Source: Candidatus Gottesmanbacteria bacterium
Lineage (GTDB): Bacteria; Patescibacteriota; Microgenomatia; UBA10105; UBA927
Length of the DNA: 64,000 bases
Direction of reading: 5' to 3'
NCBI GenBank assembly: GCA_023245355.1
Contig: JAHFKN010000002.1
Coordinates: 72,460-136,459, forward strand
Part shown: positions 1-59,719 of the stretch, piece after piece
How positions within the stretch are numbered: position 1 is the stretch's first letter
How the letters are laid out: each line of letters begins with the position of its first letter
Program-made: the position numbers and the translations under genes
Notes under the pieces: model-generated
What the model saw: only the letters and a program-made list of their open reading frames with translations
What the model was told of the DNA's origin: nothing
Database searches by the model: none

Positions 1-609
1 CTTACGCTTACCGTACATAAAGGTGAAAAAATAGGAATAATCGGCAGGAACGGCAGCGGAAAAACCACACTGCTTAAAATTATGGCCGGCATCACAGCGC
101 CTACCAGCGGTAGGGTACAGACCTATGGCAGAGTGGTCTCGCTTATTGATCTCGAAGCGGGATTTCATGCGGACCTTACCGGATATCAGAATATATATTT
201 AAACGGCATGCTGCTTGGAATGAGCCGCCGGGAAATCGAAGCCAAAATCAAAGACATTATCGCATTTGCCGACCTTAAACAATTCATTGACGCTCCGCTG
301 TTTACCTATTCAAGCGGCATGGCGCTGCGCCTCGGATTTGCCGTTGCCGTCCATGCGGAGCCGGATATTTTACTTCTGGATGAAAACCTCTCTGCGGGAG
401 ATGCCAATTTCAGAATAAAAGCCCGGCGCAAACTCCAGGAATTTTTTCGGGAAGAAAAAACGATCATTGTGGTCACACACTATCTGGACTTTATCGCGGA
501 GACGTGTGACCGGATCATACACATCAAAAACGGGGCGGTTGTACGTGACGGCGGACTCGAAATATTGTCCCAATACGATCCCGACTGGAAGCGGCCGCAA
601 AAGAAATAA
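1..609 (+). CDS. ABC transporter ATP-binding protein, polysaccharide/teichoic-acid export type (Wzt/TagH-like); 5' end is outside the window
   Basis: The reading frame is open from base 1. Walker A GRNGSGKTT, ABC signature LSAGD and Walker B ILLLDE are present, and the gene lies in a glycan locus. Confidence 0.8.
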   Translation, partial: LTLTVHKGEKIGIIGRNGSGKTTLLKIMAGITAPTSGRVQTYGRVVSLIDLEAGFHADLTGYQNIYLNGMLLGMSRREIEAKIKDIIAFADLKQFIDAPLFTYSSGMALRLGFAVAVHAEPDILLLDENLSAGDANFRIKARRKLQEFFREEKTIIVVTHYLDFIAETCDRIIHIKNGAVVRDGGLEILSQYDPDWKRPQKK

Positions 610-630: not shown

Positions 631-2004
631 TTACTTCCGGAGAATATAATATGTAGCGTCCCCGGTATCCTCCAAAACCTCAAAACGCGATGTCACGTAC
701 GGCACGAGGTTCCGGTACACCGGTAATAACGGCTTCGGCGCGACGATGAAATCGACATGATTTATTTCGATGTCATACATCTCCCGCGCGATAAAATCGG
801 GGAAAAACGAATCAACCAACGGGTACCGGATCGGAAAATGATTCGGGGGAATTCTGTTTATCATCGCATAAAGTTCTGCCTGTTCGCCCATGACAAACAG
901 CCGGCGGTCCGTAAGTACTCCGCGTGAAAGATATGCTGCTATCCGCGCACTTTTTTCTTCTTCCCACCAGGGGATACGGGTTGCAGCACGCGTGACAAAT
1001 ATCTCGACACTGTATGTCACAAGCAGCAAATAGAGTATGAGCGCAGATGCAAACAGCCGTTTTCTGAACAAAGCCGGCAAGGCCCGCAATATCTCTCCTA
1101 TTGTTATGCAATAAAATGCCGCCATGGGAACCAGATGTTCTTTTCCGAATTCCACCCTGAGAAACACGAGCGACATAACGGCAAACGAAAGGGGGATAGC
1201 GATATTACGGGGGAACGGAATCCGCTCTATAAGAATGAGTCCGAACATCAAAAGTAACGAGGAAGAAATAAGCAGCGGATAATCGGACACGGGACTCCCG
1301 ACATAATGCTTGAGGATATACGCATTAAATTGCACGATATCAGTCCACAATTGCGTATGAGCGCCGAGTGCAGTTGCGGCACCGGCCACGAACACCCAAC
1401 TCAGCAAAAACATCCACAGGACGGACAGGTGCCGGTAATAATACAGTACCGGAACAAGTATGATTGCGGCGTTCGGCTTTATAAAAGAACTGACGGCGAC
1501 AAGTAATCCTACCAGTATGGATTTCCACCTCACTTCAGGTACACCTGTAATCAGAAGATAGATTCCCAAATAGACGGTCGTAACGGCCGTTTCATACCAC
1601 AGATGATTTATCGATACGGCGTTTGTTAACGACGTGTAGACGGTCAGAATCAACACAAAATCAAAAAGACGGGCGCGTCGGAATATAACGCTCACGAAGA
1701 GCAAATTCAGACTGAGCAGACCCCAGTACACATACCGTAACAGCCCGAAATTTCCGCTTTGTACGACGGGTGCGAGCAGATAATACAGAAAAAATCCGTG
1801 GTGGTCGAAAAAATCCCGGTAGGGCACCATGCCCCGGCTGACAAGCCAGGGGGAGAAAAATAATTCCGGCCAGGTGGTCAGTTTCGTAGACCAAATAAGT
1901 GCCGTTTGAGCGGCAAACAGCAGAAAAACTGCAGTGATATACGGCACAACGTGCCTATTTTTCTTCCAGATATTTTCCGTCTTCATTGATGCTCCAGAGA
2001 TCAT
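631..2004 (-). CDS. polytopic membrane protein with C-terminal soluble domain (possible GT-C-type glycosyltransferase/polymerase)
   Basis: There are more than 10 predicted TM helices followed by a roughly 110-aa soluble tail. The start was trimmed to the ATG at 2004 because the annotated 2058 start would overlap the upstream gene by 104 nt; the ATG at 1986 is an alternative. Confidence 0.4.
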   Translation of the reverse strand: MISGASMKTENIWKKNRHVVPYITAVFLLFAAQTALIWSTKLTTWPELFFSPWLVSRGMVPYRDFFDHHGFFLYYLLAPVVQSGNFGLLRYVYWGLLSLNLLFVSVIFRRARLFDFVLILTVYTSLTNAVSINHLWYETAVTTVYLGIYLLITGVPEVRWKSILVGLLVAVSSFIKPNAAIILVPVLYYYRHLSVLWMFLLSWVFVAGAATALGAHTQLWTDIVQFNAYILKHYVGSPVSDYPLLISSSLLLMFGLILIERIPFPRNIAIPLSFAVMSLVFLRVEFGKEHLVPMAAFYCITIGEILRALPALFRKRLFASALILYLLLVTYSVEIFVTRAATRIPWWEEEKSARIAAYLSRGVLTDRRLFVMGEQAELYAMINRIPPNHFPIRYPLVDSFFPDFIAREMYDIEINHVDFIVAPKPLLPVYRNLVPYVTSRFEVLEDTGDATYYILRK

Positions 2005-3370
2005 GTGCGTCCCGATGTTGATAATTTTCCGCCGCATGTATCCCGCTTTCCATTGCATGATCCATATTATTGTACTTATACATCCCGCCGCGCCCGATCA
2101 GAGTCACATTCGTAAACGTGCTTACGTATTCCTTTATTACGTCAAATGCCTTTTCGTACCCCAAGTAATATGCAGGATATGCATCTGCCTCACGGACTAC
2201 GAAACTTCCGACAAGCTTCTGGTCGGAAAGCAACCCTGCGGATGTAAGCTCGGAATATGCAAAGTGTTGAAGATAGGTATCGGTCTCATGCCACAATCGA
2301 TCTTCTTTAAAAACAAAATATTCGACGGAAAGCGCGTGAGTTTTCCGTAAAGACGCGTTCGGTTGGAAATTATTATAATTTGTTACCCTGGCCATTTGGA
2401 AATCAGGGGAATGGATATACAACCACTGATCGGGAAACGGACTCGCCCCGCGTACGAGCAGATTTACCGTAATATGGTCACGATACCGCAGGCGCCGTGC
2501 AGCAGCCAGAACCGTTTTAGGCGGGGCGGGGGAGAGGGCAGTGATAAATGCCGTAATCGGCATACTGGAAAACACATGTGCGGGGGTTTCCGTTACCCGT
2601 TTACCGTGCTTTATATAATCCACACGGATTATTTTTCTGTCTTTATGATGAATACCGGTGACATGGCTCTGATACCGGAACGTAACGCGCTCCTTTCCGA
2701 ATGTTTCTGCCATGCGGGTATACATCTGTCCGCTGCCCCGTACCGGATAATAAAACGATCGGACCAGACTTTTCGGATCGGCCGGCGGCCTGATATTGAA
2801 CGCTGCAAGAACAAGCGACACAACACTCAGATTTTGAATCCGTTGCACTGCCCATTTTGCGCTGATCCTGTCACAGGATACGCCCCATACTTTTTCTGTA
2901 TATGTCTTAAAAAAAATGGAGTAGAGCCTGTACCCGAAGCGTGCAGTAACCCACTGTGTAAACGTTTCGGCAGGCGGCCGGAACAAACGGAGTTTTGCCG
3001 CAAGATAACTGAAAACGCTCAATATCACATCTTTCGGTCCGAGTTTTTTCATCACATCCCACGCGTCGAGAGGGTACGAAAACAGCTTGCCGCCATACAG
3101 CACCCGGGTTAACCGATGTACCGGATGAAATCCCGCACCCAGGGTTTTTTTCCATAATGAATCTATGGCCGGATTTTTCGTATAAAACCTGTGCGGGCCG
3201 ACATCAAACCAATGACCCTGAAAAAAAACACTCCTCGCGAGACCGCCGGGATGGGTATTCCGGTCCAAAACGACAATATGCTGTTTCTCTTTTTCTTTTT
3301 GAAGGGTCAGGGCGCAGGAAAGGCCGGCAGGACCTGCTCCGATAATAACGATGCGACGCATGCTAGCCAT
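1955..3370 (-). CDS. FAD/NAD(P)-binding oxidoreductase (amine-oxidase/UDP-galactopyranose-mutase-like fold)
   Basis: The N-terminus has the dinucleotide-binding motif IVIIGAGPAGLSCA. The C-terminus has GRGGMYKYNNMDHAMESG, which resembles the UGM/amine-oxidase C-terminal motif. Confidence 0.6.
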   Translation of the reverse strand: MASMRRIVIIGAGPAGLSCALTLQKEKEKQHIVVLDRNTHPGGLARSVFFQGHWFDVGPHRFYTKNPAIDSLWKKTLGAGFHPVHRLTRVLYGGKLFSYPLDAWDVMKKLGPKDVILSVFSYLAAKLRLFRPPAETFTQWVTARFGYRLYSIFFKTYTEKVWGVSCDRISAKWAVQRIQNLSVVSLVLAAFNIRPPADPKSLVRSFYYPVRGSGQMYTRMAETFGKERVTFRYQSHVTGIHHKDRKIIRVDYIKHGKRVTETPAHVFSSMPITAFITALSPAPPKTVLAAARRLRYRDHITVNLLVRGASPFPDQWLYIHSPDFQMARVTNYNNFQPNASLRKTHALSVEYFVFKEDRLWHETDTYLQHFAYSELTSAGLLSDQKLVGSFVVREADAYPAYYLGYEKAFDVIKEYVSTFTNVTLIGRGGMYKYNNMDHAMESGIHAAENYQHRDAHDLWSINEDGKYLEEK

Positions 3371-3416: not shown

Positions 3417-4127
3417 ATGGGCACATCCGGGCGACTGATTGTCAGCTTCCATATCACAAAATGCGCCGGCCAATGGCTCGCCAAATCCATACGCGATAAT
3501 TACCCACCTAACGCCAGTACATTTCTTTATCAAACACGCCGCAACCCGTCGTACGAGTCTCTTCCGTTCCTCCGGGCATATTTTTTTTTCCTGCCGAAAG
3601 CCCTCCGGCAAACGCTCCGCATCATTCACGGACACGGCGCATTTTGGGGAATTCACGAATATTTTCCTGACCGGACAACAGAATACAGCGTCATGCTGCG
3701 CGAGCCGGTCGCACGGACTATTTCCCATTATTACTATTTCCGGAGGTCACCCGGAGCCCGCGATTCAAGAAAAAGCCTGTTTGATGAACACGGGAAGCTC
3801 AGAACGCTTTCTGACTGGGTGACCCATACGCCTTCGGCCCAGAATCACATGGTCCGGTTTCTGTATGCGCGCTTATTTCACCGGGAAATTGAAGGGAACG
3901 TCACCGAACGTGAATATCGTGAGACGCTGCGGCGTCTTAAATCTTTTGCATTCGTCGGCCACATTGACAGGCCGGGGGATAAAGAGAAATTATTAACGTT
4001 TCTTGATATAAAAAAACCGGCCCGGCCGGTTAACAAATCCGTTCGGCACTCCGTGCCGACCATAGCTGACCTAGAACGCATTCAAAAACTGAATGAATTC
4101 GACATAAAACTCTACGCGGAAACGTAA
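3417..4127 (+). CDS. sulfotransferase family protein
   Basis: A 5'-PSB-like motif FHITKCAGQ and a 3'-PB-like motif LREPVARTISHYYY (RDPxxRxxSxY) are present. The start is set at the MGTSG ATG after the divergent promoter. Confidence 0.55.
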   Translation: MGTSGRLIVSFHITKCAGQWLAKSIRDNYPPNASTFLYQTRRNPSYESLPFLRAYFFFLPKALRQTLRIIHGHGAFWGIHEYFPDRTTEYSVMLREPVARTISHYYYFRRSPGARDSRKSLFDEHGKLRTLSDWVTHTPSAQNHMVRFLYARLFHREIEGNVTEREYRETLRRLKSFAFVGHIDRPGDKEKLLTFLDIKKPARPVNKSVRHSVPTIADLERIQKLNEFDIKLYAET

Positions 4128-4154
4128 CGGTCGGCTTACAATAACGTAAAACCG

Positions 4155-4253
4155 TTATGAGGCTACGGTAGCAAACGCGGTGAGCTCAATCTTCTCTGAA
4201 GTCTTTGCCGGTTTCTTGTATGACTTCTTGACTGGCGCTGTTATCTGTTTCAT
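4155..4253 (-). CDS. unannotated 32-aa ORF (MKQITAPVKKSYKKPAKTSEKIELTAFATVAS), candidate RiPP precursor peptide
   Basis: AGGAGG sits 7 nt upstream of the ATG, the best SD in the region. The ORF lies 36 nt downstream of the PqqD-like gene on the same strand and ends in Ser. It is absent from the ORF track because it is under 60 aa. Confidence 0.35.
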   Translation of the reverse strand: MKQITAPVKKSYKKPAKTSEKIELTAFATVAS

Positions 4254-4288
4254 AGATTTTCCTCCTACTTTTTATAGTAAGCATGCTC

Positions 4289-4585
4289 TTACCGATTGTC
4301 AACAACAAAAAGCTTTCCGCTGCCCGATTCTGATTGTATGAATGCGATGACATCTTTTTGTGCCTGCTTTACGGAAACATCATACGAAGAGGCTACCGCC
4401 GCAATAATAGCTGACACCTTCCTGGGACTCTTAAGAAACTCCCATATAAAACTACCGACGTCATTATACGTATGAAGGATCATATGGGAATCGTCAAAAA
4501 CGTAGAGCGTTTCACCTACAACCCTAGTCGCGGCCTCCGGATTCCTGCGGATTTTGGTTTCTTCCCGTACTGAGTCTTTCTTCAT
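4289..4585 (-). CDS. PqqD-family protein (RiPP recognition element, lasso B1-like)
   Basis: The 98-aa protein has the core LYVFDDSHMILHTYNDVGSFIWEFL...AIIAAVASSYDVSVKQAQKDVIAFIQ, which is typical of PqqD/RRE proteins. Confidence 0.7.
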   Translation of the reverse strand: MKKDSVREETKIRRNPEAATRVVGETLYVFDDSHMILHTYNDVGSFIWEFLKSPRKVSAIIAAVASSYDVSVKQAQKDVIAFIQSESGSGKLFVVDNR

Positions 4586-5433
4586 AATTTGGTAATCAGG
4601 GCAAGAAATTTTTTACTTCTGCTGAATTCCAGATTGTAATGCCGGTAAAATCTGGATGTAAATAATTTTATCCCAAGTGACAGAAGAAATAAATAGCGGG
4701 GGGAATACTCAATGAACTTGAGATTCGGCCGGAGATGCCGCTGTAGCCTCGACAGTGTTATTGACCTCGGAACAGGCACGAGCACATCCTGTTGTTGATC
4801 TGTATGACGCAGCCACAGGCATTTATCAAGCGGATATCTGCCCGTTACGGAAACCTGTATGTTCGGATCAAAGGGGTTTGCAATAACCGAATACCCGTTG
4901 TTCTCGGGGATAACAACGGTAATATCATCGGAAAGCTGCGGTGCCTGTGATAACCTCGCGATCGTCGATTTTCCGACGCCCTGCCTGCCGATAAATACAT
5001 ACGCGTTTTTCCCTATAACGACGGAGGACGCGTGCAACATAAATCCTCCCTGTTCCAGGATATGAAAAAAATACAGCATGGAAAATATCGGGTTCAGCCC
5101 CCGCGCAGTCGGTGCAATGCGGAACGCCCCTTTCCAGCTTTTGATGTTAATTTCTCCTTTTGCCGGCCGTTCCAGCCGAAGACTCAACATGTCACCCGTT
5201 TGACGCACTGCATTCGGTTCTTTCGTCAATGTTGAGTCGACGGTAATATCCAGATACATATGGCTTGTAACAGTAGCGTTGCTCTTGGGAGGCTCGAAAC
5301 TCTTTACTACTGCATAGAACGCGTCGGACGACCCGCGGAGCATCACGTGGATACAAAGATTATCAGCAATAATCGAAAAACGGCGGATATCAGACATACC
5401 GGTGTAAATATGTAATAATCTTTTTTTCCGCAT
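4582..5433 (-). CDS. HPr kinase/phosphorylase C-terminal-domain-like protein (putative peptide Ser kinase)
   Basis: It has the P-loop GRQGVGKST in an HprK-like context. GAGGA precedes the ATG at 5433, and there is a 4-nt overlap with the PqqD gene. Confidence 0.55.
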   Translation of the reverse strand: MRKKRLLHIYTGMSDIRRFSIIADNLCIHVMLRGSSDAFYAVVKSFEPPKSNATVTSHMYLDITVDSTLTKEPNAVRQTGDMLSLRLERPAKGEINIKSWKGAFRIAPTARGLNPIFSMLYFFHILEQGGFMLHASSVVIGKNAYVFIGRQGVGKSTIARLSQAPQLSDDITVVIPENNGYSVIANPFDPNIQVSVTGRYPLDKCLWLRHTDQQQDVLVPVPRSITLSRLQRHLRPNLKFIEYSPRYLFLLSLGIKLFTSRFYRHYNLEFSRSKKFLALITKL

Positions 5434-6376
5434 CCGTCCTCAGCCGGCGCAACAATAATTCACCCGATGCATTCATGTTCCGATACGGTCTGACGGAAAT
5501 GCCGACCGCATCAAATAGTGTATTCATAGATTTTGTCCGGGATCCGTTCATAAGCTGATACGTAAGGAGACGCAAATGAAATGAAGTAAACGCGCGAATC
5601 ATCCGCTCCGTGAGGACTCCAACTGTAGGTTGTGAATGCCTGACACGAATTGTATCAAGGGACTCTCCCCAATACAATTCGCCGGTCATATAGGCATCAA
5701 AGTGTTCTTCCAGCCGGCGCGGGGATATAGTGACCGATATATCGGTTCTCCGTATCCTAAATCCCATATGGTTCAGCCTGACGCTGAATTCCATGTCGTC
5801 GTTATAGCGAAGCACGGTAGCCCCCAATTGTATGCCGCCGCTTTGCCTGTAGGCACGGCGCGTAACCGCATAAAACGGTCCCTGGAATATCTCCGGCCGC
5901 CATCCCCGGGTTGCCTGCGACAATCGTTTCCGCCGTCCGACCAGCGTCGTGTACATAGTGCGTTTTTTGGTACTCCACCCGGTATATATGTCCCAGGGGA
6001 ATACAAAGGATCCGTATATGCCGTCCGTTTTCGGCTTGTTGATCTCATTCCATACGTCATGGACAAACGCAGGGGACACCCGGGAATCCGCATCCAATTT
6101 AACAAGCACACGGCTATCAAGCGCTGCTTCAAAACCATGCTTTGTTGCCTCTGCAATCCCGCGTACAGGTTCATGCAGCAGGAGATAGGGAAGCGCTAAT
6201 TTCCGGCACCACTCCGTAACCGAACGAACTGTACGGTCACGGGATCCGTTATCGACAATCACCAAACGGAACGGGGGGTGCGGTTTATGCTGCACGACAA
6301 ACTGTCGTAACATTTCACCGATAATCGGTTCTTCATTCAGAACAGGCACGATAAGTGAAATCGGATATGGTGTCAT
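5390..6376 (-). CDS. glycosyltransferase family 2
   Basis: The N-terminus SLIVPVLNEEP...LVIVDNGSRDRT is characteristic of GT-A family 2. Confidence 0.7.
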   Translation of the reverse strand: MTPYPISLIVPVLNEEPIIGEMLRQFVVQHKPHPPFRLVIVDNGSRDRTVRSVTEWCRKLALPYLLLHEPVRGIAEATKHGFEAALDSRVLVKLDADSRVSPAFVHDVWNEINKPKTDGIYGSFVFPWDIYTGWSTKKRTMYTTLVGRRKRLSQATRGWRPEIFQGPFYAVTRRAYRQSGGIQLGATVLRYNDDMEFSVRLNHMGFRIRRTDISVTISPRRLEEHFDAYMTGELYWGESLDTIRVRHSQPTVGVLTERMIRAFTSFHLRLLTYQLMNGSRTKSMNTLFDAVGISVRPYRNMNASGELLLRRLRTDAEKKIITYLHRYV

Positions 6377-6379
6377 AAC

Positions 6380-7294
6380 CTATGAACTCTTCGGCTTATA
6401 CGGTGTGACGCGCCAGCGCATCGAAGTTATATCGGTATCCTGCAGATGGTGTTTTGTGCCATACGGTGCACGATACCAGTGACCGACATACGCATCCGTA
6501 AGATTATTCTTTTGTGTATCTTCAAGCCGGGAATTGTCGATAGCGCGGGAAACGGACCGTCTGCTTTGTAACACCGAATCCCTGCCTCCTGCCACGACGA
6601 CGATATTCTGCACACGCGCGGCATCTTCGGGATGCTGCGGAAATACCCGTACGAATGCAAAATAGGTTCTGAGAATCGCCGCAGTTGATCGCCAAAGCCA
6701 TGCCCCTTTTCCTGTTATGGGACCGATATGATTTATGACAAGATATCCGTCGGTACGAAGTATGGTCGCTATTTTTTGAAATGACTCCGTTGTATACGTG
6801 GAAAGCTCCTGAGATGAAAGCATCCCGGGAAATAGCACCGATCCGGAATCCGCATCCGGCCAGTACAGGTTCCCCATGGTGATATCTACAAATATCAAAT
6901 CGAAATGGCGCGTTGTACGGAGGCGGTTTACGTCATCACGTGCAAACCGGCATATGACCTCCATATTTTTGCGGAACCCATGCCTGTGTTTCCGTATAAC
7001 ATCAATAACCACATCATCCGCTTCCACTACCCGTACCAGGCACTCAGGGTATGTTGCCGCAAAATAGTCCGAGCAAACAAATGCGCCGCCTCCCAGATGA
7101 AGAATGCGGGACGGGGGAGCTCCCAATTCGGCTATCTTTGTATAAATTTTATAATCCCGCCGCTGCATGTCTCCGTCCGCACCCGCACCGGAAGAAATAA
7201 TCCCGCCGCTGTGTGTGTCCAGACGGAATTCCGAAAAAAATCTGGTATGCCCGAAAAACACTGTTGTTAATTTGTTATGTAATTTCATGATCAT
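6380..7294 (-). CDS. spermidine-synthase-like (PABS fold) class I methyltransferase-fold protein
   Basis: Motifs ILHLGGGAF, VVEADDVVIDVIRKH and FDLIFVDI are present. Confidence 0.45.
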   Translation of the reverse strand: MIMKLHNKLTTVFFGHTRFFSEFRLDTHSGGIISSGAGADGDMQRRDYKIYTKIAELGAPPSRILHLGGGAFVCSDYFAATYPECLVRVVEADDVVIDVIRKHRHGFRKNMEVICRFARDDVNRLRTTRHFDLIFVDITMGNLYWPDADSGSVLFPGMLSSQELSTYTTESFQKIATILRTDGYLVINHIGPITGKGAWLWRSTAAILRTYFAFVRVFPQHPEDAARVQNIVVVAGGRDSVLQSRRSVSRAIDNSRLEDTQKNNLTDAYVGHWYRAPYGTKHHLQDTDITSMRWRVTPYKPKSS

Positions 7295-7953
7295 GCCAAT
7301 CTGTGTATACGGCGGATTTCATCCGTATGCCGGTCAATAAGTTTCCGCACATACTCAGGCCCGAATTTCAAAAGATAATGTGCTGATGAAAACGGGGGGA
7401 CCGAAGGATCGTTCCAATCACTGAAAATAAGCCGGATTCCCGCTGCTTTAAACTCTCTCTCGTTAAGATAGGAGTGTGCCCCCATGCCGGAAATAAATAC
7501 GGTGGCTCCCACAAAATGACATATTTCAATAATACGGGCGACACGATCCTTACTTTTCACCGTAATGTCGCTGCTCCGCAAAAAATTCCTTCTGATGGAT
7601 AACGAATGCAAAATCCATTCCGACATGGCGATATTGAGAGCAGATAAATTCTGCCACGGCCTGCCGTAGATTTCGTCCGGAATTTTTCCGTACGCCATGC
7701 GCAGCGTACTTACGTGTTTTTTCCGCCAATGATCACCGCTTATGCTGACATCCTTTATTTTCTGTCCGTATTTGTAGCGCACCGGAACGGTAAGCCATTG
7801 CCAGGAGTCACCTGACTGTATACGGTTCCTGTTTTGGAACCCGTCCTTTTCGTATTGGACATCATCATAAAAAATATGCGTATCGGAAAGCGCAATTTTT
7901 GCGATATGGCCAAGATACGGCAGGTACTCCGGCTGATGCATGGAAAGTATCAT
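7291..7953 (-). CDS. WbqC-like family protein
   Basis: The N-terminus MHQPEYLPYLGHIAKIALSDTHIFYDDVQYEKDGFQNRNRI matches the WbqC family (PF08889). Confidence 0.6.
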   Translation of the reverse strand: MILSMHQPEYLPYLGHIAKIALSDTHIFYDDVQYEKDGFQNRNRIQSGDSWQWLTVPVRYKYGQKIKDVSISGDHWRKKHVSTLRMAYGKIPDEIYGRPWQNLSALNIAMSEWILHSLSIRRNFLRSSDITVKSKDRVARIIEICHFVGATVFISGMGAHSYLNEREFKAAGIRLIFSDWNDPSVPPFSSAHYLLKFGPEYVRKLIDRHTDEIRRIHRLA

Positions 7954-8975
7954 ACTGTTATATGTGCCGCCTCAGAAAACATTGACTCCCACTCCCGCGC
8001 AATAGTTACCCAGTCATAATAGGATACAGACTGTCTGTTATGCCGGTCGATCCGCATGCGCAGCACCGGATTATTCAGCAGATTCACGGCTGCGTTTACA
8101 AATTTCTTTCTGTAAACCGGAGAGCCGGGTGTTCCCGTAATCAACACGTTCCCCCGGGCAGTTTCCGGCAGTGCTCCCCGGGCAGATGTCACAATGGCGA
8201 CACCTGCCGCACGCGCTTCCAGCACCGTCATGCTGCTCGTCTCCAATTCCGTGTTCGGATACAACAGCACCCCCGCACGAAGCATTGCTTTTGCCAGCTC
8301 CTTCTTCGGAAGAAGAGGGGCGACGGTTACCCCGGGAAGCTGTTTCAGATCAGAAAGAATCCGCTCTGCTTTTTTCGAAACGGCTTCACCATAAAGCGCC
8401 CGGGAGGCAATAACCATGAATGTCGAGTCGGGTACCCTGGCATGAATCTGTTTCCAAATTCCGGACAGATATTCCAGACCATCCCCGTGACCGGACACAT
8501 ACAGACATGAACGCGGATTTTTCTTCGTTTTTCCCTGATACAACAGACTCCTGACTCCGTTTCTGGATATGAAAATTTTTCCTTTAGGAATACCTAGTTG
8601 CCCGTATAATCCCGCCTGAAATTCCGAAATGGCAATCACACGATAGACTGCACGGATAAACCGCCGGAGAGTGACAGGGTGTGTCAGCGGAATAAAAGAC
8701 GGCTCTGTTATTAAGTCGGGAGACCAAAAAAACGTGCAGGGCGCAATCGACGGGTACAGAAGTACGATTGCAGGATTTCGTTTCACCACAAGCATATCTG
8801 CACGGGGCGCTGATCTGAGCTCATCGGGGTGCGTATATAAACGGACGTCATGACCCAACAGACGAAGTGCGTACACCATCTCCAGAACAGCAGTCTCTGT
8901 ACCGGGAAGCGGTGAAGCATCCGGTTTCACATCCCTGTAGGTAATCGGGCTACGGTAGTAGATCGCTATTTTCAT
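7950..8975 (-). CDS. glycosyltransferase family 1 (GT4)
   Basis: The C-terminal motif ETSSMTVLEARAAGVAIVTS is GT-B retaining GT4-like. Confidence 0.7.
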   Translation of the reverse strand: MKIAIYYRSPITYRDVKPDASPLPGTETAVLEMVYALRLLGHDVRLYTHPDELRSAPRADMLVVKRNPAIVLLYPSIAPCTFFWSPDLITEPSFIPLTHPVTLRRFIRAVYRVIAISEFQAGLYGQLGIPKGKIFISRNGVRSLLYQGKTKKNPRSCLYVSGHGDGLEYLSGIWKQIHARVPDSTFMVIASRALYGEAVSKKAERILSDLKQLPGVTVAPLLPKKELAKAMLRAGVLLYPNTELETSSMTVLEARAAGVAIVTSARGALPETARGNVLITGTPGSPVYRKKFVNAAVNLLNNPVLRMRIDRHNRQSVSYYDWVTIAREWESMFSEAAHITV

Positions 8976-9633
8976 ATGCGGATGCAGTACGGCCGGGGAG
9001 CAGGCTGCCTATTTTGGAAAGCAGGGATTTGATTTTATATTTCCACGGATAAAAATCCACCAGGTGGGAAATGAATACGGGTTTCTCCGAACGTTTCATG
9101 ATAATGACCATGTTTGGCATATCTATCGGTACAAACACATAGTCGGTCCGGTTTTTCCGTATCCAGGATAAAACAAACTGGGTAGATTCATACGTGGCGT
9201 CATGAAATACTATATATCCGTTCGTTTCGAGCATCAGGTCAGAAAAATAAAAATCCAGGAAAATCTCATCAAACCTGTGCCCGCCGTCAATAAAAATAAA
9301 TTGAAATGTTTCACCCGCTTTTGAAAGGGCGGGGAGCACGAAGTGCGAATAATCCCCGTAAAACGTGAGGCGCGTACGGAATCCGAGCCGGTCAAGGTTA
9401 AATAATCCCAAATACCGGTACCGCTTTTGAAACGGGTCGATTACTCTGTGACGAGCTCCCGTCGCGTGCATGATATACGCTGCGGAATATCCGAACCCGA
9501 GTCCTATTTCCAGCGTTTTTTTGACAGCATGCTTTGTGATGAAGTCGTGCAGGAATTCCGCTTCATTTCCTGCGATAGAAGAAATACGGTATTGTTTCGG
9601 AATAACGATGGTTTGTTCAATGAATGGAATCAT
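8950..9633 (-). CDS. class I SAM-dependent methyltransferase (CmcI/TylF-like)
   Basis: Motifs LEIGLGFGYSAAY and FIFIDGGHRFDE are present. Confidence 0.55.
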   Translation of the reverse strand: MIPFIEQTIVIPKQYRISSIAGNEAEFLHDFITKHAVKKTLEIGLGFGYSAAYIMHATGARHRVIDPFQKRYRYLGLFNLDRLGFRTRLTFYGDYSHFVLPALSKAGETFQFIFIDGGHRFDEIFLDFYFSDLMLETNGYIVFHDATYESTQFVLSWIRKNRTDYVFVPIDMPNMVIIMKRSEKPVFISHLVDFYPWKYKIKSLLSKIGSLLPGRTASAYENSDLLP

Positions 9634-9636
9634 ACG

Positions 9637-10113
9637 CTACCTGCCTGACACTGCCTTGCCCAGTTTATCTATGAGCGCAAACATCCACCCCCGGCATAGA
9701 TAATACATCCGCATCCGGTCCGCATACCTTTTCCCGTATGCATCCTCAAGTGTTATCACGCTTCCGATGATAGCCGGTCTTGCAATCGGTGCATCGAGCT
9801 TTCGCGCATTGTCACCCATAAGATACCACCTATCCTGCCTTCTGGCGATGAGGCGGTGCATATAGAACAACCCGCTGCTGTAACAGAGCAACAAATCTCC
9901 CGGCTTGGGAACGGTTGTTACCGGTCGCACCACAACAAAATTGCCGGCGCGGGCTGTCGGATACATGCTCCCTGAAATAATTCTGATCCGTGCCGGGCCT
10001 TTCGACCGGATAAACCCGATCATTGCCTTCGCGGCTTTCCCTTTTATCGTTGCTGTTTCCATACGTACAAAGCCGCCCGTCACATTCCGAGAGCTGCCCT
10101 TCCCATGAACCAT
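9637..10113 (-). CDS. S26-family signal peptidase I-like serine peptidase (SipW/TraF-like)
   Basis: It has box B SGSMYPT, KPGDLLL and box E MGDNARKLD. Confidence 0.6.
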   Translation of the reverse strand: MVHGKGSSRNVTGGFVRMETATIKGKAAKAMIGFIRSKGPARIRIISGSMYPTARAGNFVVVRPVTTVPKPGDLLLCYSSGLFYMHRLIARRQDRWYLMGDNARKLDAPIARPAIIGSVITLEDAYGKRYADRMRMYYLCRGWMFALIDKLGKAVSGR

Positions 10114-11222
10114 ATGATTTTGGGCCGGAGGAGCCGCCCATGCGGAACCAAATCACGGAGTAGTGTATCCAAAATGCCGATATCAGTAAATACGCGCTGT
10201 GCCCATTTGTTACGTGCATGATGCCATGCCTCCATCGATACACGCACCACAATAAAATGACGCAGAAAAAAATTCAGGTACGTACGAAAAGCCGGCGACA
10301 GCCCGAACAGCGCACGGACGGAAGAGGGAAGGGAAATCTTATAAAATACTGACCCCGCTTCTGCGATAAAAGAAAACAGTGTATACCACTGATATTCATT
10401 CAATAGGGCATAAAGCCGTCTGCGGTCCGCCGGACTCAGGGCCAGCAGGGAATGTACAATCTGATAGAGCGTATGCATGCCGAATCCCAAATCGTTGTAC
10501 CAAAAGCTTACCGCCAAATAGAACACATAATACGGAGGATCGGATACGCGCTTGCTACTTTCTTCATGTGTATATACGAGCATGTCGTGCGTTAATCGCT
10601 TTATCATGGTCATACGTTCATAAGACATGTCGCCGAAATGGGGATGCGCTACAAGCGTATGAATATCTATCCGGATACCGGAATGCGGGTTAGAAACGGT
10701 GCACTCCTTTGGCGGATATCGTTTCAGTGTATACCCCCGCTTTACATACCGGCGTACCAGCCCGTCACAGGCGCTGCCGGAAACAAGAACGTCAATATCC
10801 GAACTCACGTTTTCCCGGGAAAGAAAACCAGGGTGAAACGGACTGGTTTTATAAAAAACGGCGGTATACCGTCCGCGTCCGATGACTGATACAAGCGTCC
10901 GCAGCTCTTTGAGCTTTTTCCGGCAGTCTGACATCGCCGTAAATTCCGCTCCCATAAGCTGCTTCATAAATGAGTCGGATATATGACGCCGGCAGAATAC
11001 ACAATGAATATAATGAAACACGTTTCCGTATGCTTTGTTATAACTTGCAAGCCACAACAGCTCATGTTCCTGCTGCAGGGAAAGCTGGGGGATGTGCGGG
11101 CAAGCGCGTGATTCCGTGCTTACGATAGTCTCCCTCAGAACTGAGACGGTATCATTTCCGTCAATTGTATATGACTGTTTCATGGAATGTGATCCGCCGG
11201 AGTATAATCGATTACGTTTCAA
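10080..11222 (-). CDS. nucleotidyltransferase-fold protein (PF14907-like)
   Basis: It contains G[FS]...(x12)...SDIDVLV, a minimal NTase signature. This family co-occurs with HprK, PqqD and sulfotransferase genes in RiPP loci. Confidence 0.45.
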   Translation of the reverse strand: MKRNRLYSGGSHSMKQSYTIDGNDTVSVLRETIVSTESRACPHIPQLSLQQEHELLWLASYNKAYGNVFHYIHCVFCRRHISDSFMKQLMGAEFTAMSDCRKKLKELRTLVSVIGRGRYTAVFYKTSPFHPGFLSRENVSSDIDVLVSGSACDGLVRRYVKRGYTLKRYPPKECTVSNPHSGIRIDIHTLVAHPHFGDMSYERMTMIKRLTHDMLVYTHEESSKRVSDPPYYVFYLAVSFWYNDLGFGMHTLYQIVHSLLALSPADRRRLYALLNEYQWYTLFSFIAEAGSVFYKISLPSSVRALFGLSPAFRTYLNFFLRHFIVVRVSMEAWHHARNKWAQRVFTDIGILDTLLRDLVPHGRLLRPKIIWFMGRAALGM

Positions 11223-15300: not shown

Positions 15301-16394
15301 TTCCGGTTAACCGCCCGTCAGTACCTGCGCATGCAAAAAAATATCTCGATGAATGCGTCCGTTCTGGATGGTTTTCTTCTGAAGGTCCGTTCGTAAAACG
15401 GTTTGAGAATGAATTTGCGCGTTACCTCGGAGTGAAACATGCAGGTGCAACCAGCTCGGGAACTGCCGCGCTTCACCTGGCGCTACTTGCGCTCGGCGTA
15501 GGTCCGGGCGATGAGGTTATTCTTCCTGCAATGACAATCGCGTCGTGTTATTTTGCCATATGGTATACCGGAGCCAAAGCGGTGCCTGTTGACGTAGACC
15601 CGGAAACCTATTGCATAGATCCGGATGTAATCGACCGCGCCGTTACAAAACGCACGAAAGTTATCATGGTCGTTCATCTGTTCGGACACCCATGCGATAT
15701 GGACCCGATCATGATGCTTGCCAAAAAATATAAGCTCAAAGTCCTTGAGGATGCGGCAGAGGCACACGGAGCCGAGTACAAAGGCCGCAAGGTCGGATCA
15801 ATAGGGGATATTGCTATATTCAGCTTTTACGCGAACAAAATCGTGACAACCGGTGAAGGCGGCATGGTGGTATCCAATACCAAAACATATATTGAACGGG
15901 TCAACAAAATAAAAGCCCTCAATCATTCTAAAACCCGGTTCATCCACGACGGAATCGGGTATACGTATCTTATGAGCAACATGCAGGCGGCCGTCGGCCT
16001 TTCCAGTCTGGAGGAAATTGAACGGTCAATCGCAAGAAAACGTACTATGGCAACACTCTATCGCAACCAGCTTTCCGGCATATCCGGCCTTATCCTGCCG
16101 GTAGAAAAATCATGGGCGACAAATGTGTACTGGATGTACGCGGTGCGCATGGATCCGAAGGCTCATCTATCACGCAAAAAGCTCATTGATCTGCTCATGA
16201 CAAAATATGGCGTCCAAACAAGAACCTTTTTTTATTCTCCGCGTACCGCATTCAGAAAACTACAATTATTTAAAACGGATAGATTCCCTGTGGCAGAGGC
16301 GCTGGAACGGAGAGGGTTCTATTTACCGTCCGGACTTGGGAATACAAACATGGAATTTATCCGTACCTCGCATGCTCTTCAAAAATTACTTTAA
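15282..16394 (+). CDS. DegT/DnrJ/EryC1/StrS family PLP-dependent sugar aminotransferase
   Basis: FSFYANKIVTTGEGGMVVSN holds the PLP-lysine region, and the overall fold is DegT-like. Confidence 0.8.
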   Translation: MGARNIIPVNRPSVPAHAKKYLDECVRSGWFSSEGPFVKRFENEFARYLGVKHAGATSSGTAALHLALLALGVGPGDEVILPAMTIASCYFAIWYTGAKAVPVDVDPETYCIDPDVIDRAVTKRTKVIMVVHLFGHPCDMDPIMMLAKKYKLKVLEDAAEAHGAEYKGRKVGSIGDIAIFSFYANKIVTTGEGGMVVSNTKTYIERVNKIKALNHSKTRFIHDGIGYTYLMSNMQAAVGLSSLEEIERSIARKRTMATLYRNQLSGISGLILPVEKSWATNVYWMYAVRMDPKAHLSRKKLIDLLMTKYGVQTRTFFYSPRTAFRKLQLFKTDRFPVAEALERRGFYLPSGLGNTNMEFIRTSHALQKLL

Positions 16395-25986: not shown

Positions 25987-26068
25987 TATTGTCGGATAAT
26001 ACCCGCTCAGATATAATCTATCGGTAACACGGCGGGCGCCGTTATATATGCCGATACATATCCGCTGC

Positions 26069-26749
26069 ATGATAGATCTTAAAGCCATAAATAAAACTCT
26101 GGGCAGAAAACTCATTTTATCAAATGTATCACTTTCCGTACGCCCCGGCGAGATTGTCGGCATAGCCGGACCGGTAGGAGCAGGTAAATCAACACTGCTT
26201 AACATATGCAACGGGCTTATCAGTCCGGACAGTGGATTCGTCACGATTATAAATCTGCCTATGCAGACAAACCAACAACAGATTCTGCAGCATATAAATT
26301 ATGCCTCCTCCAGTCAGCGGCTCAGCGGATACGCTACCGTTATGGAAAATCTTGCGACGTACGCGCTGCTCTACGAGGTGCCCGATGCAAAAATCCGTCT
26401 TGCTTCTTTCTTCGAGCATTTCGGTGTTCCGGCAGGACTTCTTCACAAAAAAATTTACCGTCTGTCCTCAGGGGAAAACTCGCTCGTGAATCTGGCAAAG
26501 GCGCTCCTCAACAATCCAAACGTCTTATTGTTAGATGAAATCACTGCTCACATGGACCCCATTCTCACGGCGCGTGTTCACAAATTTCTGAAAAAAAGAA
26601 ACACTGCGGAATTTGTTACTATGCTCGTATCACAAAACACAAAGGAGCTGCAGAGCTTCTGCTCACGTTTGATTGTGTTGTCACATGGCAGAATTGTTTA
26701 TAACGGAAAACCTCTTTCCCCGGCCCGGATCAAAACGTATTATGCATAA
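26069..26749 (+). CDS. ABC transporter ATP-binding protein (polysaccharide export, Wzt-like, no C-terminal extension)
   Basis: It has the canonical N-terminus MIDLKAINKTLG, Walker A GPVGAGKST, LSSGE and LLLDE. Confidence 0.75.
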   Translation: MIDLKAINKTLGRKLILSNVSLSVRPGEIVGIAGPVGAGKSTLLNICNGLISPDSGFVTIINLPMQTNQQQILQHINYASSSQRLSGYATVMENLATYALLYEVPDAKIRLASFFEHFGVPAGLLHKKIYRLSSGENSLVNLAKALLNNPNVLLLDEITAHMDPILTARVHKFLKKRNTAEFVTMLVSQNTKELQSFCSRLIVLSHGRIVYNGKPLSPARIKTYYA

Positions 26750-38357: not shown

Positions 38358-38363
38358 AGTGCG

Positions 38364-40945: not shown

Positions 40946-40950
40946 AATGA

Positions 40951-42222: not shown

Positions 42223-42281
42223 ACAATAATCATTGTAGAGGTAAAAATTATAGTGTTCAATAGCACAAAGCGCATCAGGAC

Positions 42282-55473: not shown

Positions 55474-55474
55474 T

Positions 55475-58897: not shown

Positions 58898-58899
58898 CT

Positions 58900-59712: not shown

Positions 59713-59719
59713 TGCGGTT

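What the first reader, a model, noticed from the sequence alone, without database searches (positions are those of the whole stretch)
3417..11222. RiPP-like peptide-modification operon (PqqD RRE, HprK-like kinase, PF14907 NTase, sulfotransferase, GTs, S26 peptidase) without lasso cyclase/protease
A single minus-strand operon of about 7 kb (11222 to 4155) runs NTase, S26 peptidase, SAM-MT, GT4, WbqC-like, spermidine-synthase-like, GT2, HprK-like, PqqD-like, then a 32-aa ORF, with a convergent sulfotransferase. The HprK, PqqD, NTase and sulfotransferase combination is known as a tailoring set of kinase-type lasso peptide clusters. Here there is no asparagine-synthetase-like cyclase and no transglutaminase-like B2 protease. 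Instead the set is fused to glycosyltransferases, which is reminiscent of glycocin S/O-glycosylation by GT2, and to a signal-peptidase-like enzyme. This looks like an undescribed peptide phosphorylation/glycosylation system embedded in a glycan island.
Basis: partly seen in the sequence, partly recalled or inferred. Interest (0 to 1): 0.88.

Follow-up and report, generated by a model that had tools for sequence, protein, structure and literature searches.

The report
Peptide phospho-glycosylation operon, LPP-like variant
This is a real gene cluster that most likely modifies a tiny ribosomal peptide with phosphate and sugars; its enzyme core matches a peptide family first described in 2026, but here it has built-in sugar-adding enzymes, an almost "core-less" 32-residue precursor, and relatives in ultra-small candidate-phyla (CPR) bacteria.

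Summary
A translationally coupled minus-strand operon (11183→4155) encodes NTase, S26 peptidase, methyltransferase, GT4, WbqC, a spermidine-synthase-like protein, GT2, an HprK/ScmC-like kinase, a PqqD RRE and a 32-aa ORF. A sulfotransferase-like gene converges on it.

The decisive new evidence is the small ORF. It has an AGGAGG ribosome-binding site and is conserved in five divergent lineages, including Candidatus Chisholmbacteria. The motif is YxKPx5K[ILV]xLTA[FY]A[TS] followed by only 1-3 residues. Between window and L002, 12 codon changes are synonymous and 2 are not. The neighbouring kinases are only 28-46% identical.

The system is no longer "undescribed". SipW-type peptidase + RRE + HprK-like kinase + NTase without a lasso cyclase is the core of the Linear Polyphosphorylated Peptides (LPP; Popov et al. 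2026, PMC13381572). The peptide shares their YxxP and F-x-T↓ motifs.

This locus differs in four ways:
- GT4-WbqC-SpdSyn-GT2 are syntenic inside the operon.
- The exporter is ABC-2 type rather than MsbA-like.
- Almost nothing follows the predicted cleavage site.
- Relatives lie in CPR, not Bacillota, and the subfamily is rare (6 representatives at E≤1e-30).

Verdict: a new variant of a known kind. The chemistry is entirely inferred.

The parts
4155..4253 (-). Precursor peptide gene, 32 aa: MKQITAPVKKSYKKPAKTSEKIELTAFATVAS. It carries the RRE-binding YxxP (Y12-P15), the invariant LTAFAT (24-29), a predicted cleavage after T29, and a 3-residue tail VAS.
   Evidence: The ORF is listed and was called as a gene in L001. 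Orthologues exist in L002, L004/L007, L009 and L029. Window versus L002 shows 12 synonymous and 2 nonsynonymous codon changes. The motif occurs once in the window against 0 expected. It has no NCBIfam match.
4261..4266 (-). AGGAGG ribosome-binding site, 7 nt upstream of the peptide ATG.
   Evidence: Read directly from the sequence.
4274..4302 (-). Promoter-like site TTGACA-17-TACTAT inside the 3' end of the PqqD gene, just upstream of the peptide RBS. It may be a dedicated precursor promoter.
   Evidence: Consensus scan, 10 of 12 matches. This is a pattern match only, not evidence of function.
4289..4585 (-). Discrete RiPP recognition element (PqqD family, 98 aa).
   Evidence: PF05402 46.9 bits against 23.4. 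The best NCBIfam hit is lasso_PqqD_Bac, below its cutoff. The best solved relatives are PbaB1 (9x90, E 0.0015) and LppB (9x8z, E 0.0018). The query motif D-V-I-A-F aligns to LppB E-D-I-E-A-F.
4582..5397 (-). HprK/ScmC-like P-loop kinase (271 aa from the called start; the ORF extends to 5433). Motifs: LHASS, GRQGVGKST, LSDD.
   Evidence: PF27840 ScmC, precomputed. Weak TIGR04249 ScmC hit. In the 32-sequence family alignment H122, G142-T145 and D157 are invariant. AF2 pLDDT 91.3. Foldseek hits: ATP-PEPCK E 3e-7, HprK/P E 1e-4 to 1e-3.
5390..6376 (-). Family-2 glycosyltransferase. It lies immediately upstream of the kinase in the window-type loci and L009; in L023 it follows PqqD.
   Evidence: PF00535 71.5 bits. 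Synteny.
6380..7294 (-). Class-I SAM-fold protein, spermidine-synthase-like (LGGGA, VVEAD, DLIFVDITMG). It has no Pfam family. The substrate is unknown.
   Evidence: NF037959 31 bits against 40. PDB 3gjy spermidine synthase, E 0.01. Orthologues are in L004, L008 and L027, with 58 invariant columns.
7291..7953 (-). WbqC-family protein, predicted to have a class-I aminoacyl-tRNA-synthetase-like / BshC-like ATP-dependent ligase fold.
7950..8975 (-). Family-4 (GT-B) glycosyltransferase.
   Evidence: PF13692/PF00534. Orthologues are 29-42% identical in L002, L004 and L009, and a GT4 occupies the same position in L027.
8950..9633 (-). SAM-dependent methyltransferase (Methyltransf_24 / O-MT-like). 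It is not present in all related cassettes.
   Evidence: PF13578 42.6 bits. It is absent from the operon in L004 and L027. A Methyltransf_24 gene lies nearby in L002.
9637..10113 (-). Soluble S26, SipW/archaeal-type signal-peptidase-like protease. It is the predicted peptide-processing enzyme, with no N-terminal membrane anchor.
   Evidence: PF00717 22.2 against 23.3; TIGR02228 sigpep_I_arch 24.8 bits. Motifs SGSMYPT, YMHRLIA and MGDN. M50, P52, H86, R87 and D101 are invariant across five cassette peptidases.
10080..11183 (-). PF14907-type (Pol-beta-like) nucleotidyltransferase with an SSDIDVLVS motif. The ORF extends to the TTG at 11222.
   Evidence: PF14907 20 bits against 31.2. E 5e-28 to the L027 orthologue and 1e-20 to the L009 orthologue, both of which have PF14907 hits on record (weak for L027).
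3417..4127 (+). Convergent sulfotransferase-like gene (KCAGQW PAPS-loop-like and REPVARTISHY motifs). It is an accessory part, not universal.
   Evidence: PF00685 14 bits in the window. The L002 orthologue (47% identical) scores 27.9 against 22. No counterpart was found in the sequenced parts of L004 or L009.
82..609 (+). 3' part of the ABC-2-system ATPase; the gene starts before the window. Its ABC2_membrane partner lies just outside the window. This is the predicted exporter.
   Evidence: PF00005. L001 shows the ABC_tran + ABC2_membrane pair. It is 83%, 56% and 53% identical to the ATPases next to the cassettes in L002, L004 and L009. In L009 it is co-operonic.

Best explanation
This is a RiPP operon of the LPP type whose substrate is the 32-aa peptide at 4155-4253.

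The proposed pathway is as follows. Every chemical step is inferred; only gene content, conservation and folds are shown.
1. The discrete PqqD RRE binds the Y12-x-x-P15 motif of the lysine-rich peptide and presents its C-terminal LTAFAT-VAS end to the enzymes.
2. The HprK/ScmC-like kinase phosphorylates a hydroxyl at or near the C-terminus. Candidates are the invariant T/S at position 29, T25, or S32 in the window's T-x-x-S arrangement.
3. The PF14907 nucleotidyltransferase and the GT4/GT2 pair build a phosphate-linked glycan on it.
4. The WbqC aaRS-like ligase, the SpdSyn-like enzyme, the methyltransferase and the sulfotransferase decorate that glycan.
5. The soluble SipW-type S26 peptidase cuts after F27-A28-T29, which corresponds to the LPP F(-3)-x-T(-1) site, and removes only a 1-3 residue tail.
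6. The ABC-2 transporter exports the product.

Because nothing conserved follows the cleavage site, the mature product is most likely the modified N-terminal 25-29-residue cationic peptide. That is the segment which would be the 'leader' in Bacillota LPPs.
For: Conserved precursor:
- Five lineages carry YxKPx5K[ILV]xLTA[FY]A[TS] plus 1-3 residues within a few hundred bases of PqqD: downstream in four, and across the S24 gene in L009.
- The substitution pattern indicates protein-level selection.
- The peptide has an AGGAGG RBS.

Conserved synteny:
- The order S26-GT4-WbqC-SpdSyn-GT2-kinase-PqqD is conserved in the window, L004/L007 and L027, partly in L002 and L008, and as a reduced set in L009 and L023.
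- An ABC-2 transporter is adjacent in four cassette lineages (window/L001, L002, L004, L009) and also in the rSAM-type L010.

RRE:
- It passes the Pfam gathering score.
- Its best solved relatives are LppB and PbaB1. The LppB residues described as fixing Tyr and Pro (D70, F74) align to D and F in the window protein.

Kinase:
- The family, fold and invariant H/P-loop/D residues support a kinase.

Peptidase:
- It keeps a Ser/His/Asp set like LppS S29/H68/D93.

Experimental precedent:
- In LPP, LppK polyphosphorylates Ser3, and LppS cleaves after T(-1) in an RRE-dependent way that requires F(-3), E(-2) and T(-1).
- In pseudomycoidin, the NTase adds hexoses to the phosphate.

Leader homology:
- An rSAM-type ScmC/PqqD cassette (L010) has a precursor with the same YKKPA leader. 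The N-terminal half of the window peptide is therefore a bona fide leader-type RRE ligand.
Against: - No chemistry was observed; every modification is inferred.
- The residue phosphorylated in LPP (Ser at +3) is present only in the window peptide. L009 has Gly there, and L002, L004 and L029 end at +1. LppK did not accept Thr.
- The middle of the LPP motif (VLxHQxI) is absent, and the Y-to-T spacing is 17 residues rather than 15.
- LppN showed no activity in the only LPP reconstitution.
- The GTs could serve a neighbouring polysaccharide rather than the peptide, as is assumed possible for Bacillota LPP loci.
- Three related contigs (L023, L027/L028) show no peptide, although all end close to the cassette.
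- Several family calls are sub-threshold on the window's own sequences.
Confidence: 0.6

Rival explanations
1. Two systems are interleaved. Only the RRE, kinase, S26 peptidase and NTase act on the peptide, giving a plain (poly)phosphorylated LPP-like peptide. GT4, WbqC, the SpdSyn-like protein, GT2, the methyltransferase and the ABC-2 transporter make and export an ordinary lipid-linked surface polysaccharide. The peptide system accompanies or regulates that polysaccharide.
For: The window cassette sits in a glycan island of about 30 kb. The island has DegT/GFO amino-sugar genes, WecG, Wzy_C proteins and a second ABC-2 system. Bacillota LPP clusters are likewise embedded in capsule loci, and GTs are not part of their conserved core. 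The WbqC family is mostly found outside this cassette (465 hits). ABC-2 transporters typically export glycans (established knowledge).
Against: The GT/WbqC/SpdSyn genes lie between S26/NTase and kinase/PqqD in one overlapping operon. They keep that order in lineages whose kinases are only 36-46% identical. Even the reduced cassettes keep GT2 next to kinase-PqqD. The cassette WbqC copies form their own group. The ABC ATPase travels with the cassette, and the window has a separate ABC-2 system for the island.
Confidence: 0.2
2. The peptide is a reusable scaffold for making a small molecule, in the manner of PQQ, mycofactocin or the pearlins. The 1-3 C-terminal residues, or the C-terminal carboxylate, are modified. 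The aaRS-like WbqC ligase may act on the carboxylate. The S26 peptidase then releases the small product.
For: Only 1-3 residues follow the predicted cleavage site. WbqC has a class-I aaRS/BshC/MshC-like ligase fold suited to activating a carboxylate. The RRE family is shared with PQQ biosynthesis.
Against: The tail is not conserved (VAS, V, T, VAG, I). V and I offer no hydroxyl for a kinase or a GT. A small-molecule pathway would be expected to fix the residue it consumes.
Confidence: 0.08
3. The small ORF is not a substrate. It would be a conserved small basic protein or regulatory leader, and the PqqD/kinase pair would act on another target, such as a sugar or a protein.
For: No direct evidence links the enzyme set to the peptide. 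In L009 and L029 the peptide gene is not co-oriented with PqqD.
Against: The peptide carries the YxxP motif recognised by this RRE clade, plus the F-x-T site used by the LPP peptidase. It co-occurs with PqqD/kinase in every locus with enough flanking sequence except L027. The related L010 peptide with the same leader has a classic Cys-rich RiPP core.
Confidence: 0.07

Closest known systems
Linear Polyphosphorylated Peptides (LPP) of Bacillota: LppA/K/B/S/D/N (Popov et al., Nat Commun 2026, PMC13381572)
   Same: The core matches: an archaeal/SipW-type signal-peptidase-like leader peptidase, a discrete PqqD RRE, an HprK-like kinase and an uncharacterised NTP transferase. There is no macrolactam cyclase, and the cluster sits in a polysaccharide locus. 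The precursor has YxxP and F-x-T before the cleavage site, and the window peptide even has T-x-x-S. The final product is unknown in both systems.
   Different: - The exporter is ABC-2 type, not MsbA-like.
- GT4, GT2, WbqC and the SpdSyn-like gene are conserved inside the operon.
- The precursor is 26-32 aa rather than 35-200 aa, with only 1-3 non-conserved residues after the cleavage site.
- The middle of the leader motif differs (Kx[ILV]xLTA instead of VLxHQxI).
- Ser(+3) is not conserved.
- The only relatives with a taxonomic assignment are Patescibacteria/Microgenomates, whereas LPPs were reported as restricted to Bacillota.
- The RRE is equally distant from LppB and from the lasso RRE PbaB1.
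Kinase-type lasso peptides: paeninodin (PadeK) and pseudomycoidin (PsmK/PsmN)
   Same: An HprK-like kinase acts on a Ser hydroxyl at the peptide C-terminus in an RRE/leader-dependent way. A PF14907-type NTase adds hexose to the phosphate. A sulfotransferase gene is often adjacent.
   Different: There is no Asn-synthetase-like cyclase and no transglutaminase-like B2 protease. The peptide is too short and lacks an Asp/Glu acceptor arrangement for a lasso. The leader peptidase is an S26 enzyme.
SynChlorMet (SCM) cassette: ScmC + ScmD (PqqD-like) with radical SAM/SPASM enzymes (NCBIfam TIGR04248/TIGR04249)
   Same: The kinase belongs to the same Pfam family (PF27840 ScmC) and is paired with a PqqD protein. 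L010 shows such a cassette with NTP_transf_5, an ABC-2 transporter and a precursor sharing the YKKPA leader.
   Different: The window cassette has no radical SAM/SPASM enzyme, and its peptide has no Cys-rich core. The TIGR04249 match is far below its cutoff (19 against 125 bits).
BshC / MshC (class-I aaRS-like cysteine-aminosugar ligases), as the structural analogue of the WbqC component
   Different: It has only the 220-aa catalytic domain, sequence identity is about 15% or less, and the substrates are unknown. This is fold resemblance only.

Membership tests
LPP (linear polyphosphorylated peptide) BGC | Archaeal/SipW-type signal peptidase I homologue (Ser-His-Asp) encoded next to a discrete RRE | tested here: met
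   The best NCBIfam hit is TIGR02228 sigpep_I_arch, below its cutoff. The SGSMYPT, HR and GDN boxes are present, and H86, R87 and D101 are invariant in five cassette peptidases. The gene is in the same operon as PqqD.
LPP (linear polyphosphorylated peptide) BGC | Discrete PqqD-type RRE recognising a YxxP leader | tested here: met
   PF05402 46.9 bits. LppB (9x8z) is a co-best PDB hit, E 0.0018, and its Asp/Phe contact positions align. Binding itself was not tested.
LPP (linear polyphosphorylated peptide) BGC | HprK-like kinase | tested here: met
   PF27840. The P-loop, His and Asp are invariant. The fold matches PEPCK and HprK/P. No direct comparison with LppK was possible.
LPP (linear polyphosphorylated peptide) BGC | Uncharacterised NTP transferase (PF14907 type) | tested here: inconclusive
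   The window protein scores 20 bits against 31.2. It is homologous to the L009 and L027 cassette NTases, which carry PF14907 hits, but is not detectably similar to the Chisholmbacteria PF14907 protein.
LPP (linear polyphosphorylated peptide) BGC | MsbA-like ABC exporter | tested here: not met
   The associated transporter is a separate ABC_tran + ABC2_membrane pair.
LPP (linear polyphosphorylated peptide) BGC | Precursor of 35-200 aa with N-terminal YxxPxVLxHQxIxFETxxS and a variable core carrying Ser3 | tested here: not met
   Only YxxP and F-x-T are shared. The peptides are 26-32 aa and end 1-3 residues after the T/S. Ser(+3) occurs only in the window copy.
LPP (linear polyphosphorylated peptide) BGC | Polyphosphorylation of the peptide and RRE-dependent cleavage | not testable with these tools
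   This needs expression and mass spectrometry.
Lasso peptide BGC (kinase/paeninodin type) | Asn-synthetase-like macrolactam cyclase (C) and transglutaminase-like B2 protease | tested here: not met
   No such Pfam or NCBIfam hit on any scanned ORF in the window. The scan covered ORFs of at least 150 aa up to about 50 kb. None appears in the gene tables of the related loci.
Glycocin BGC | Cys-containing helical-hairpin precursor, S/O-glycosylating GT2, and a C39-peptidase ABC exporter | tested here: not met
   The peptide has no Cys. There is no C39 or ABC_membrane exporter. The GT2 matches only generic models.
SynChlorMet cassette | ScmC + ScmD together with radical SAM/SPASM maturases | tested here: not met
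   The window cassette has no radical SAM gene. TIGR04249 scores 19 against 125 bits and TIGR04248 scores 21 against 100.
HPr kinase/phosphorylase proper (PF07475) | Match to Hpr_kinase_C and the two-domain HprK/P architecture | tested here: not met
   The window protein has no PF07475 hit. Only distant family members co-hit PF07475. Structural similarity to HprK/P is partial, TMq about 0.27.

The most novel reading that the evidence does not exclude
The 26-32-residue lysine-rich peptide is not a leader-plus-core precursor. It would be a ribosomally made primer or anchor. A glycan is assembled on a phosphorylated Thr/Ser of its invariant C-terminal LTA[FY]A[TS] motif, by the kinase, then the NTase, then GT4/GT2, and is decorated by the aaRS-like WbqC ligase and the SpdSyn-like enzyme. 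The S26 enzyme merely trims a 1-3-residue cap. An ABC-2 (Wzm/Wzt-like) transporter exports the conjugate. This would be a peptide-primed route to a cell-surface glycoconjugate, independent of a lipid carrier, in CPR/Patescibacteria.
Probability: 0.18. Interest if true: 0.88.

Novelty: new variant of a known kind. Interest (0 to 1): 0.66.

Why it matters
The final structure and function of LPP-type peptides are unknown. In the only reconstitution, the NTase was silent, and the authors suggested that a partner encoded outside the core cluster was missing (PMC13381572).

This locus packs the LPP core and a fixed set of glycan-building and decorating enzymes into one operon of about 7 kb, with a minimal precursor of about 30 aa. 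That gives a defined gene set for testing what is built on the phosphate.

It also extends the system beyond Bacillota to Patescibacteria (Chisholmbacteria). These organisms have tiny genomes, and spending about 8-10 kb on this cassette suggests an important surface or interaction function.

The near absence of a core after the cleavage site challenges the usual leader/core logic of RiPPs.

Separately, the WbqC family, which is common in O-antigen loci and has no assigned function, receives a concrete structural prediction: a class-I aaRS/BshC-like ligase.

Tried and rejected
Searches that found little or nothing:
- An exact look-up of the 283-aa kinase ORF failed, because the called start is 12 codons downstream.
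- The peptide alignment could not be searched in the protein database because the minimum query is 40 aa.
- The genome-contig scan with the kinase profile found only a second Chisholmbacteria genome.
- A metagenome scan with a degenerate peptide pattern gave 12 hits. Only three are real, all Chisholmbacteria copies, and the rest are chance or out of frame.
- PDB sequence searches for the kinase, S26, sulfotransferase, WbqC, SpdSyn-like protein and NTase gave nothing useful, apart from a weak spermidine synthase hit. The peptide has no PDB match.
- Literature searches for ScmC, SynChlorMet, PF14907 and WbqC were uninformative.
- Cluster look-ups gave no organism names for the window. The window's own taxon is therefore not established. 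A CPR affiliation is only suggested by the Chisholmbacteria relatives and by T4SS-like and mevalonate genes.
- Rfam found no RNA families in the window.
- No convincing intrinsic terminator follows the peptide gene.
- No peptide gene was found on L023, L027 or L028, all of which end near the cassette.

Interpretations rejected:
- Lasso peptide: no cyclase or B2.
- Glycocin: no Cys and no C39 exporter.
- SCM cassette: no rSAM enzyme.
- Cleavage after A-F-A as a classical AxA signal-peptidase site. This was considered first, but the LPP precedent (F-3, T-1) fits cleavage one residue later, after the invariant T/S.

Full report
**1. What is in the sequence**

Between 11222 and 4155 the minus strand carries an unbroken chain of ORFs. 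Gaps and overlaps are only 3-35 nt. A convergent ORF lies at 3351/3417-4127 on the plus strand. An independent assembly of the same DNA (L001, SRR14366796) has the same gene calls, including the 32-aa ORF.

Five proteins pass Pfam gathering scores: PqqD (46.9 against 23.4), GT2, WbqC (169.9), GT4 and Methyltransf_24. The other five are weaker on their own sequence:
- S26/S24 peptidase: 22.2 against 23.3.
- PF14907 NTase: 20 against 31.2.
- Sulfotransferase: 14 bits.
- The 'HprK-like' protein has no hit in the local Pfam copy. Its best NCBIfam hit is ScmC (E 7e-4), and precomputed hits assign it to PF27840 'ScmC'.
- The 'spermidine-synthase-like' protein has only weak hits.

Each weak call is supported by other evidence:
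- The peptidase has the SGSMYPT, H-R and GDN boxes of His-type (SipW/archaeal) signal peptidases and no N-terminal membrane anchor.
- The NTase is 27% identical (E 5e-28 and 1e-20) to cassette orthologues that hit PF14907, and it has an SSDIDVLVS motif.
- The sulfotransferase's 47%-identical orthologue passes PF00685.
- The kinase gives a confident AF2 model (pLDDT 91.3). Its best solved matches are ATP-dependent PEPCK (E about 3e-7) and HprK/P (E 1e-4 to 1e-3). By established knowledge these share one P-loop kinase fold. His122, the GKST P-loop and Asp157 are invariant across 32 family members.

No Asn-synthetase-like cyclase or transglutaminase-like protease was found on the scanned ORFs of at least 150 aa, which cover the window up to about 50 kb.

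**2. The decisive test: is the small ORF real and conserved?**

Homologues of the kinase are rare. A word-indexed search found five. A full HMMER scan of 1.84 billion representatives found only six at E<=1e-30, against 1,455 at E<=1e-10 for the broad ScmC/HprK-like family.

I looked for a small ORF in every locus with enough flanking DNA and found the same one each time:
- Window: MKQITAPVKKSYKKPAKTSEKIELTAFATVAS.
- L002: MKKNTKSVKKIYKKPAKTSEKIVLTAYATV.
- Candidatus Chisholmbacteria (L003-L007, L011, L015, L016): MRKSQKRQIKKTPYQKPSKKAEKIELTAFATT.
- L009: MKKRKYQKPTVKRQKVVLTAFATVAG.
- L029: ...KKAKEQRRKKYSKPKDKKEKLELTAFASI.

The consensus is Y-x-K-P-x5-K-[ILV]-x-L-T-A-[FY]-A-[TS] followed by just 1-3 residues. 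The neighbouring kinases are only 28-46% identical.

Several observations show that the ORF is translated and under selection:
- In the 18-codon conserved block, window and L002 differ at 14 codons, of which 12 are synonymous.
- The window gene has AGGAGG 7 nt before its ATG.
- A TTGACA-17-TACTAT promoter-like site lies just upstream. This is a pattern match only.
- The DNA motif occurs once in the window and never in 100 shuffles.
- NCBIfam has no model for the peptide.

Three further related contigs (L023, L027/L028) show no peptide, but each ends within a few hundred bases of the cassette. I count this as a mild caveat.

**3. Conserved anatomy**

tblastn of the window proteins against the related loci shows the order S26 - GT4 - WbqC - SpdSyn-like - GT2 - kinase - PqqD - peptide in Chisholmbacteria (L004/L007). 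L027 has the same gene order but no detected peptide. Parts of the order appear on the short contigs L002 and L008. L009 has a reduced form (ABC2-ABC-GT4-GT2-kinase-PqqD, with S24, the peptide and the NTase alongside), and L023 has S24 | kinase-PqqD-GT2.

An ABC_tran/ABC2_membrane pair is adjacent in the window/L001, L002, L004 and L009. Its ATPase is 83%, 56% and 53% identical to the window copy.

The methyltransferase and the sulfotransferase are accessory. They are absent from the cassette in several loci.

The cassette-linked WbqC proteins form their own group (E<=1e-64). A gap separates them from 460 generic WbqC proteins (E<=1e-41).

The window cassette lies in a surface-glycan island of about 30 kb that has its own second ABC-2 system.

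**4. Comparison with what is known**

A full-text search led to Popov et al., Nat Commun 2026 (PMC13381572). They describe 'Linear Polyphosphorylated Peptides' (LPP) in Bacillota. The conserved core is:
- a discrete RRE (LppB);
- an HprK-like kinase (LppK);
- an uncharacterised NTP transferase (LppN);
- an MsbA-like pump.

These clusters often sit in capsule loci, and two-thirds of them have no lasso genes. The precursors are 35-200 aa with YxxPxVLxHQxIxFETxxS. LppK puts up to four phosphates on Ser3 of the core. LppS cleaves after T(-1), but only when LppB presents the peptide, and it needs F(-3), E(-2) and T(-1). LppN was inactive in the heterologous host. The final product is unknown.

The window system has the same four-enzyme core. 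Its peptide shares YxxP and [FY]-A-[TS] at positions -3 to -1, and the window copy even reads T-V-A-S, that is T-x-x-S. Among solved structures, the window PqqD is most similar to PbaB1 (9x90, E 0.0015) and LppB (9x8z, E 0.0018). The LppB Asp and Phe described as holding the leader's Tyr and Pro align to D and F in the window protein.

'Undescribed' is therefore no longer accurate. The concept of the kinase/RRE/NTase set detached from lasso machinery and paired with a signal-peptidase-like protease is published.

**5. What is different**

- The glycosyltransferases, the WbqC protein and the SpdSyn-like protein are conserved members of the operon. In Bacillota LPP clusters GTs are variable neighbours.
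- The exporter is ABC-2 type.
- The precursor has essentially no core. After the predicted cleavage site come VAS, V, T, VAG or I. These tails are not conserved, and in three lineages they have no hydroxyl at +3. Everything upstream is conserved.
- The only relatives with a taxonomic assignment are Candidatus Chisholmbacteria (Patescibacteria, Microgenomates group). LPPs were reported as restricted to Bacillota.
- The middle of the leader motif differs, and the Tyr-to-cleavage spacing is 17 residues rather than 15.

The window's own organism could not be named. It carries DnaA/DnaN, a VirB4/VirD4/PrgI block and mevalonate genes. To my recollection these fit a CPR (Microgenomates-like) genome, but I did not test that.

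**6. Mechanism (inferred)**

The PqqD protein binds YxKP. This is supported by RRE homology and by a related rSAM-type cassette (L010) whose Cys-rich precursor carries the same YKKPA leader.

The kinase phosphorylates a C-terminal-region hydroxyl. The only universally available ones are T25 and T/S29. S32 fits the LPP and paeninodin precedents, but only in the window peptide.

The NTase and GT4/GT2 then extend from the phosphate. The precedent is pseudomycoidin's PsmN, which adds hexose to the phosphoserine.

The SpdSyn-like enzyme, the methyltransferase and the sulfotransferase add further decorations. The S26 enzyme trims after T29, and the ABC-2 system exports the product.

Because only the upstream segment is conserved, I infer that the mature product is the modified cationic peptide of about 25-29 residues. 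That is the segment which is discarded as leader in Bacillota LPPs.

My confidence that this is an LPP-type RiPP system acting on this peptide is about 0.75. My confidence in the specific order and chemistry is much lower. The overall figure is 0.6.

**7. Rivals**

- The GT block may serve an ordinary polysaccharide and merely be interleaved with the peptide system (0.2). Operon-internal synteny across lineages argues against this.
- The peptide may be a scaffold for a small molecule released by S26 (0.08). The non-conserved tail argues against this.
- The ORF may be a small protein unrelated to the enzymes (0.07). Its YxxP and F-x-T motifs and its strict co-occurrence argue against this.

**8. 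Verdict**

The feature is real, more than chance, and correctly read as a lasso-independent peptide-modification operon. It is a new variant of a recently described kind, not a categorically new one.

Its value lies in the hard-wired glycan machinery, the core-less precursor and the CPR distribution. Together these make the open question of what LPP-type peptides become directly testable with a compact gene set.

Noticed in passing
[not shown]
   Followed up: partly
window 32508-35163 (+): DnaA (TIGR00362, 429.6 bits) is followed by DnaN, and the GC-skew sign changes near 34 kb. This is the likely chromosomal replication origin, directly next to the glycan island.
   Followed up: no
window 36171-44630: A block encodes an M23 peptidase-domain protein, a VirB4-like ATPase (CD1110 family), a PrgI-like protein and a VirD4-like coupling protein. 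It is a type-IV-secretion or DNA-uptake-like apparatus.
   Followed up: no
window 54307-57654 (+): Class-I (NADPH) HMG-CoA reductase and an archaeal-type thiolase are present. These are mevalonate-pathway genes, which are unusual for bacteria. To my recollection they are consistent with a Microgenomates-like CPR genome.
   Followed up: no
window 11269-32409: A large surface-glycan island contains four more GT2, two GT4, GFO/IDH/MocA + DegT amino-sugar genes, WecG/TagA, two GDSL-like proteins, a carbamoyltransferase (20649-22340), two Wzy_C-domain proteins and a second ABC-2 transporter (26048-27536).
   Followed up: partly
L009 8141-8611 (-): The cassette's S26/S24-like peptidase has Cys (YCMLP) where the other four have the nucleophile Ser (SM.P). 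It may be a Cys-nucleophile variant or an inactive copy.
   Followed up: no
L009 8762-8842 (+) versus 8708-9913 (-): The peptide gene overlaps, in antisense, the last 45 or so codons of the called NTase ORF. Either the NTase call is over-extended in this AT-rich genome or the two genes truly overlap.
   Followed up: no
L010 2199-2348 (+): An NTP_transf_5 - radical SAM/SPASM - ScmC - PqqD - ABC-2 cassette has an uncalled precursor, MAKKTYKKPALKPVKMIEVGAAACCRTSNGSCPQSVSNNKGKTRVSNTS. It shares the YKKPA leader with the window peptide but has a Cys-rich core.
   Followed up: partly
window 631-2058 (-) and 16207-17682 (+): Two large ORFs (475 and 491 aa) have no Pfam or NCBIfam match. The first is a hydrophobic polytopic membrane protein lying between the cassette and its ABC transporter. 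It may be a GT-C-like or polymerase-like protein, judged from the sequence only.
   Followed up: no
window 58001-60000: GC content drops to 0.415, against about 0.48-0.50 elsewhere in the window.
   Followed up: no
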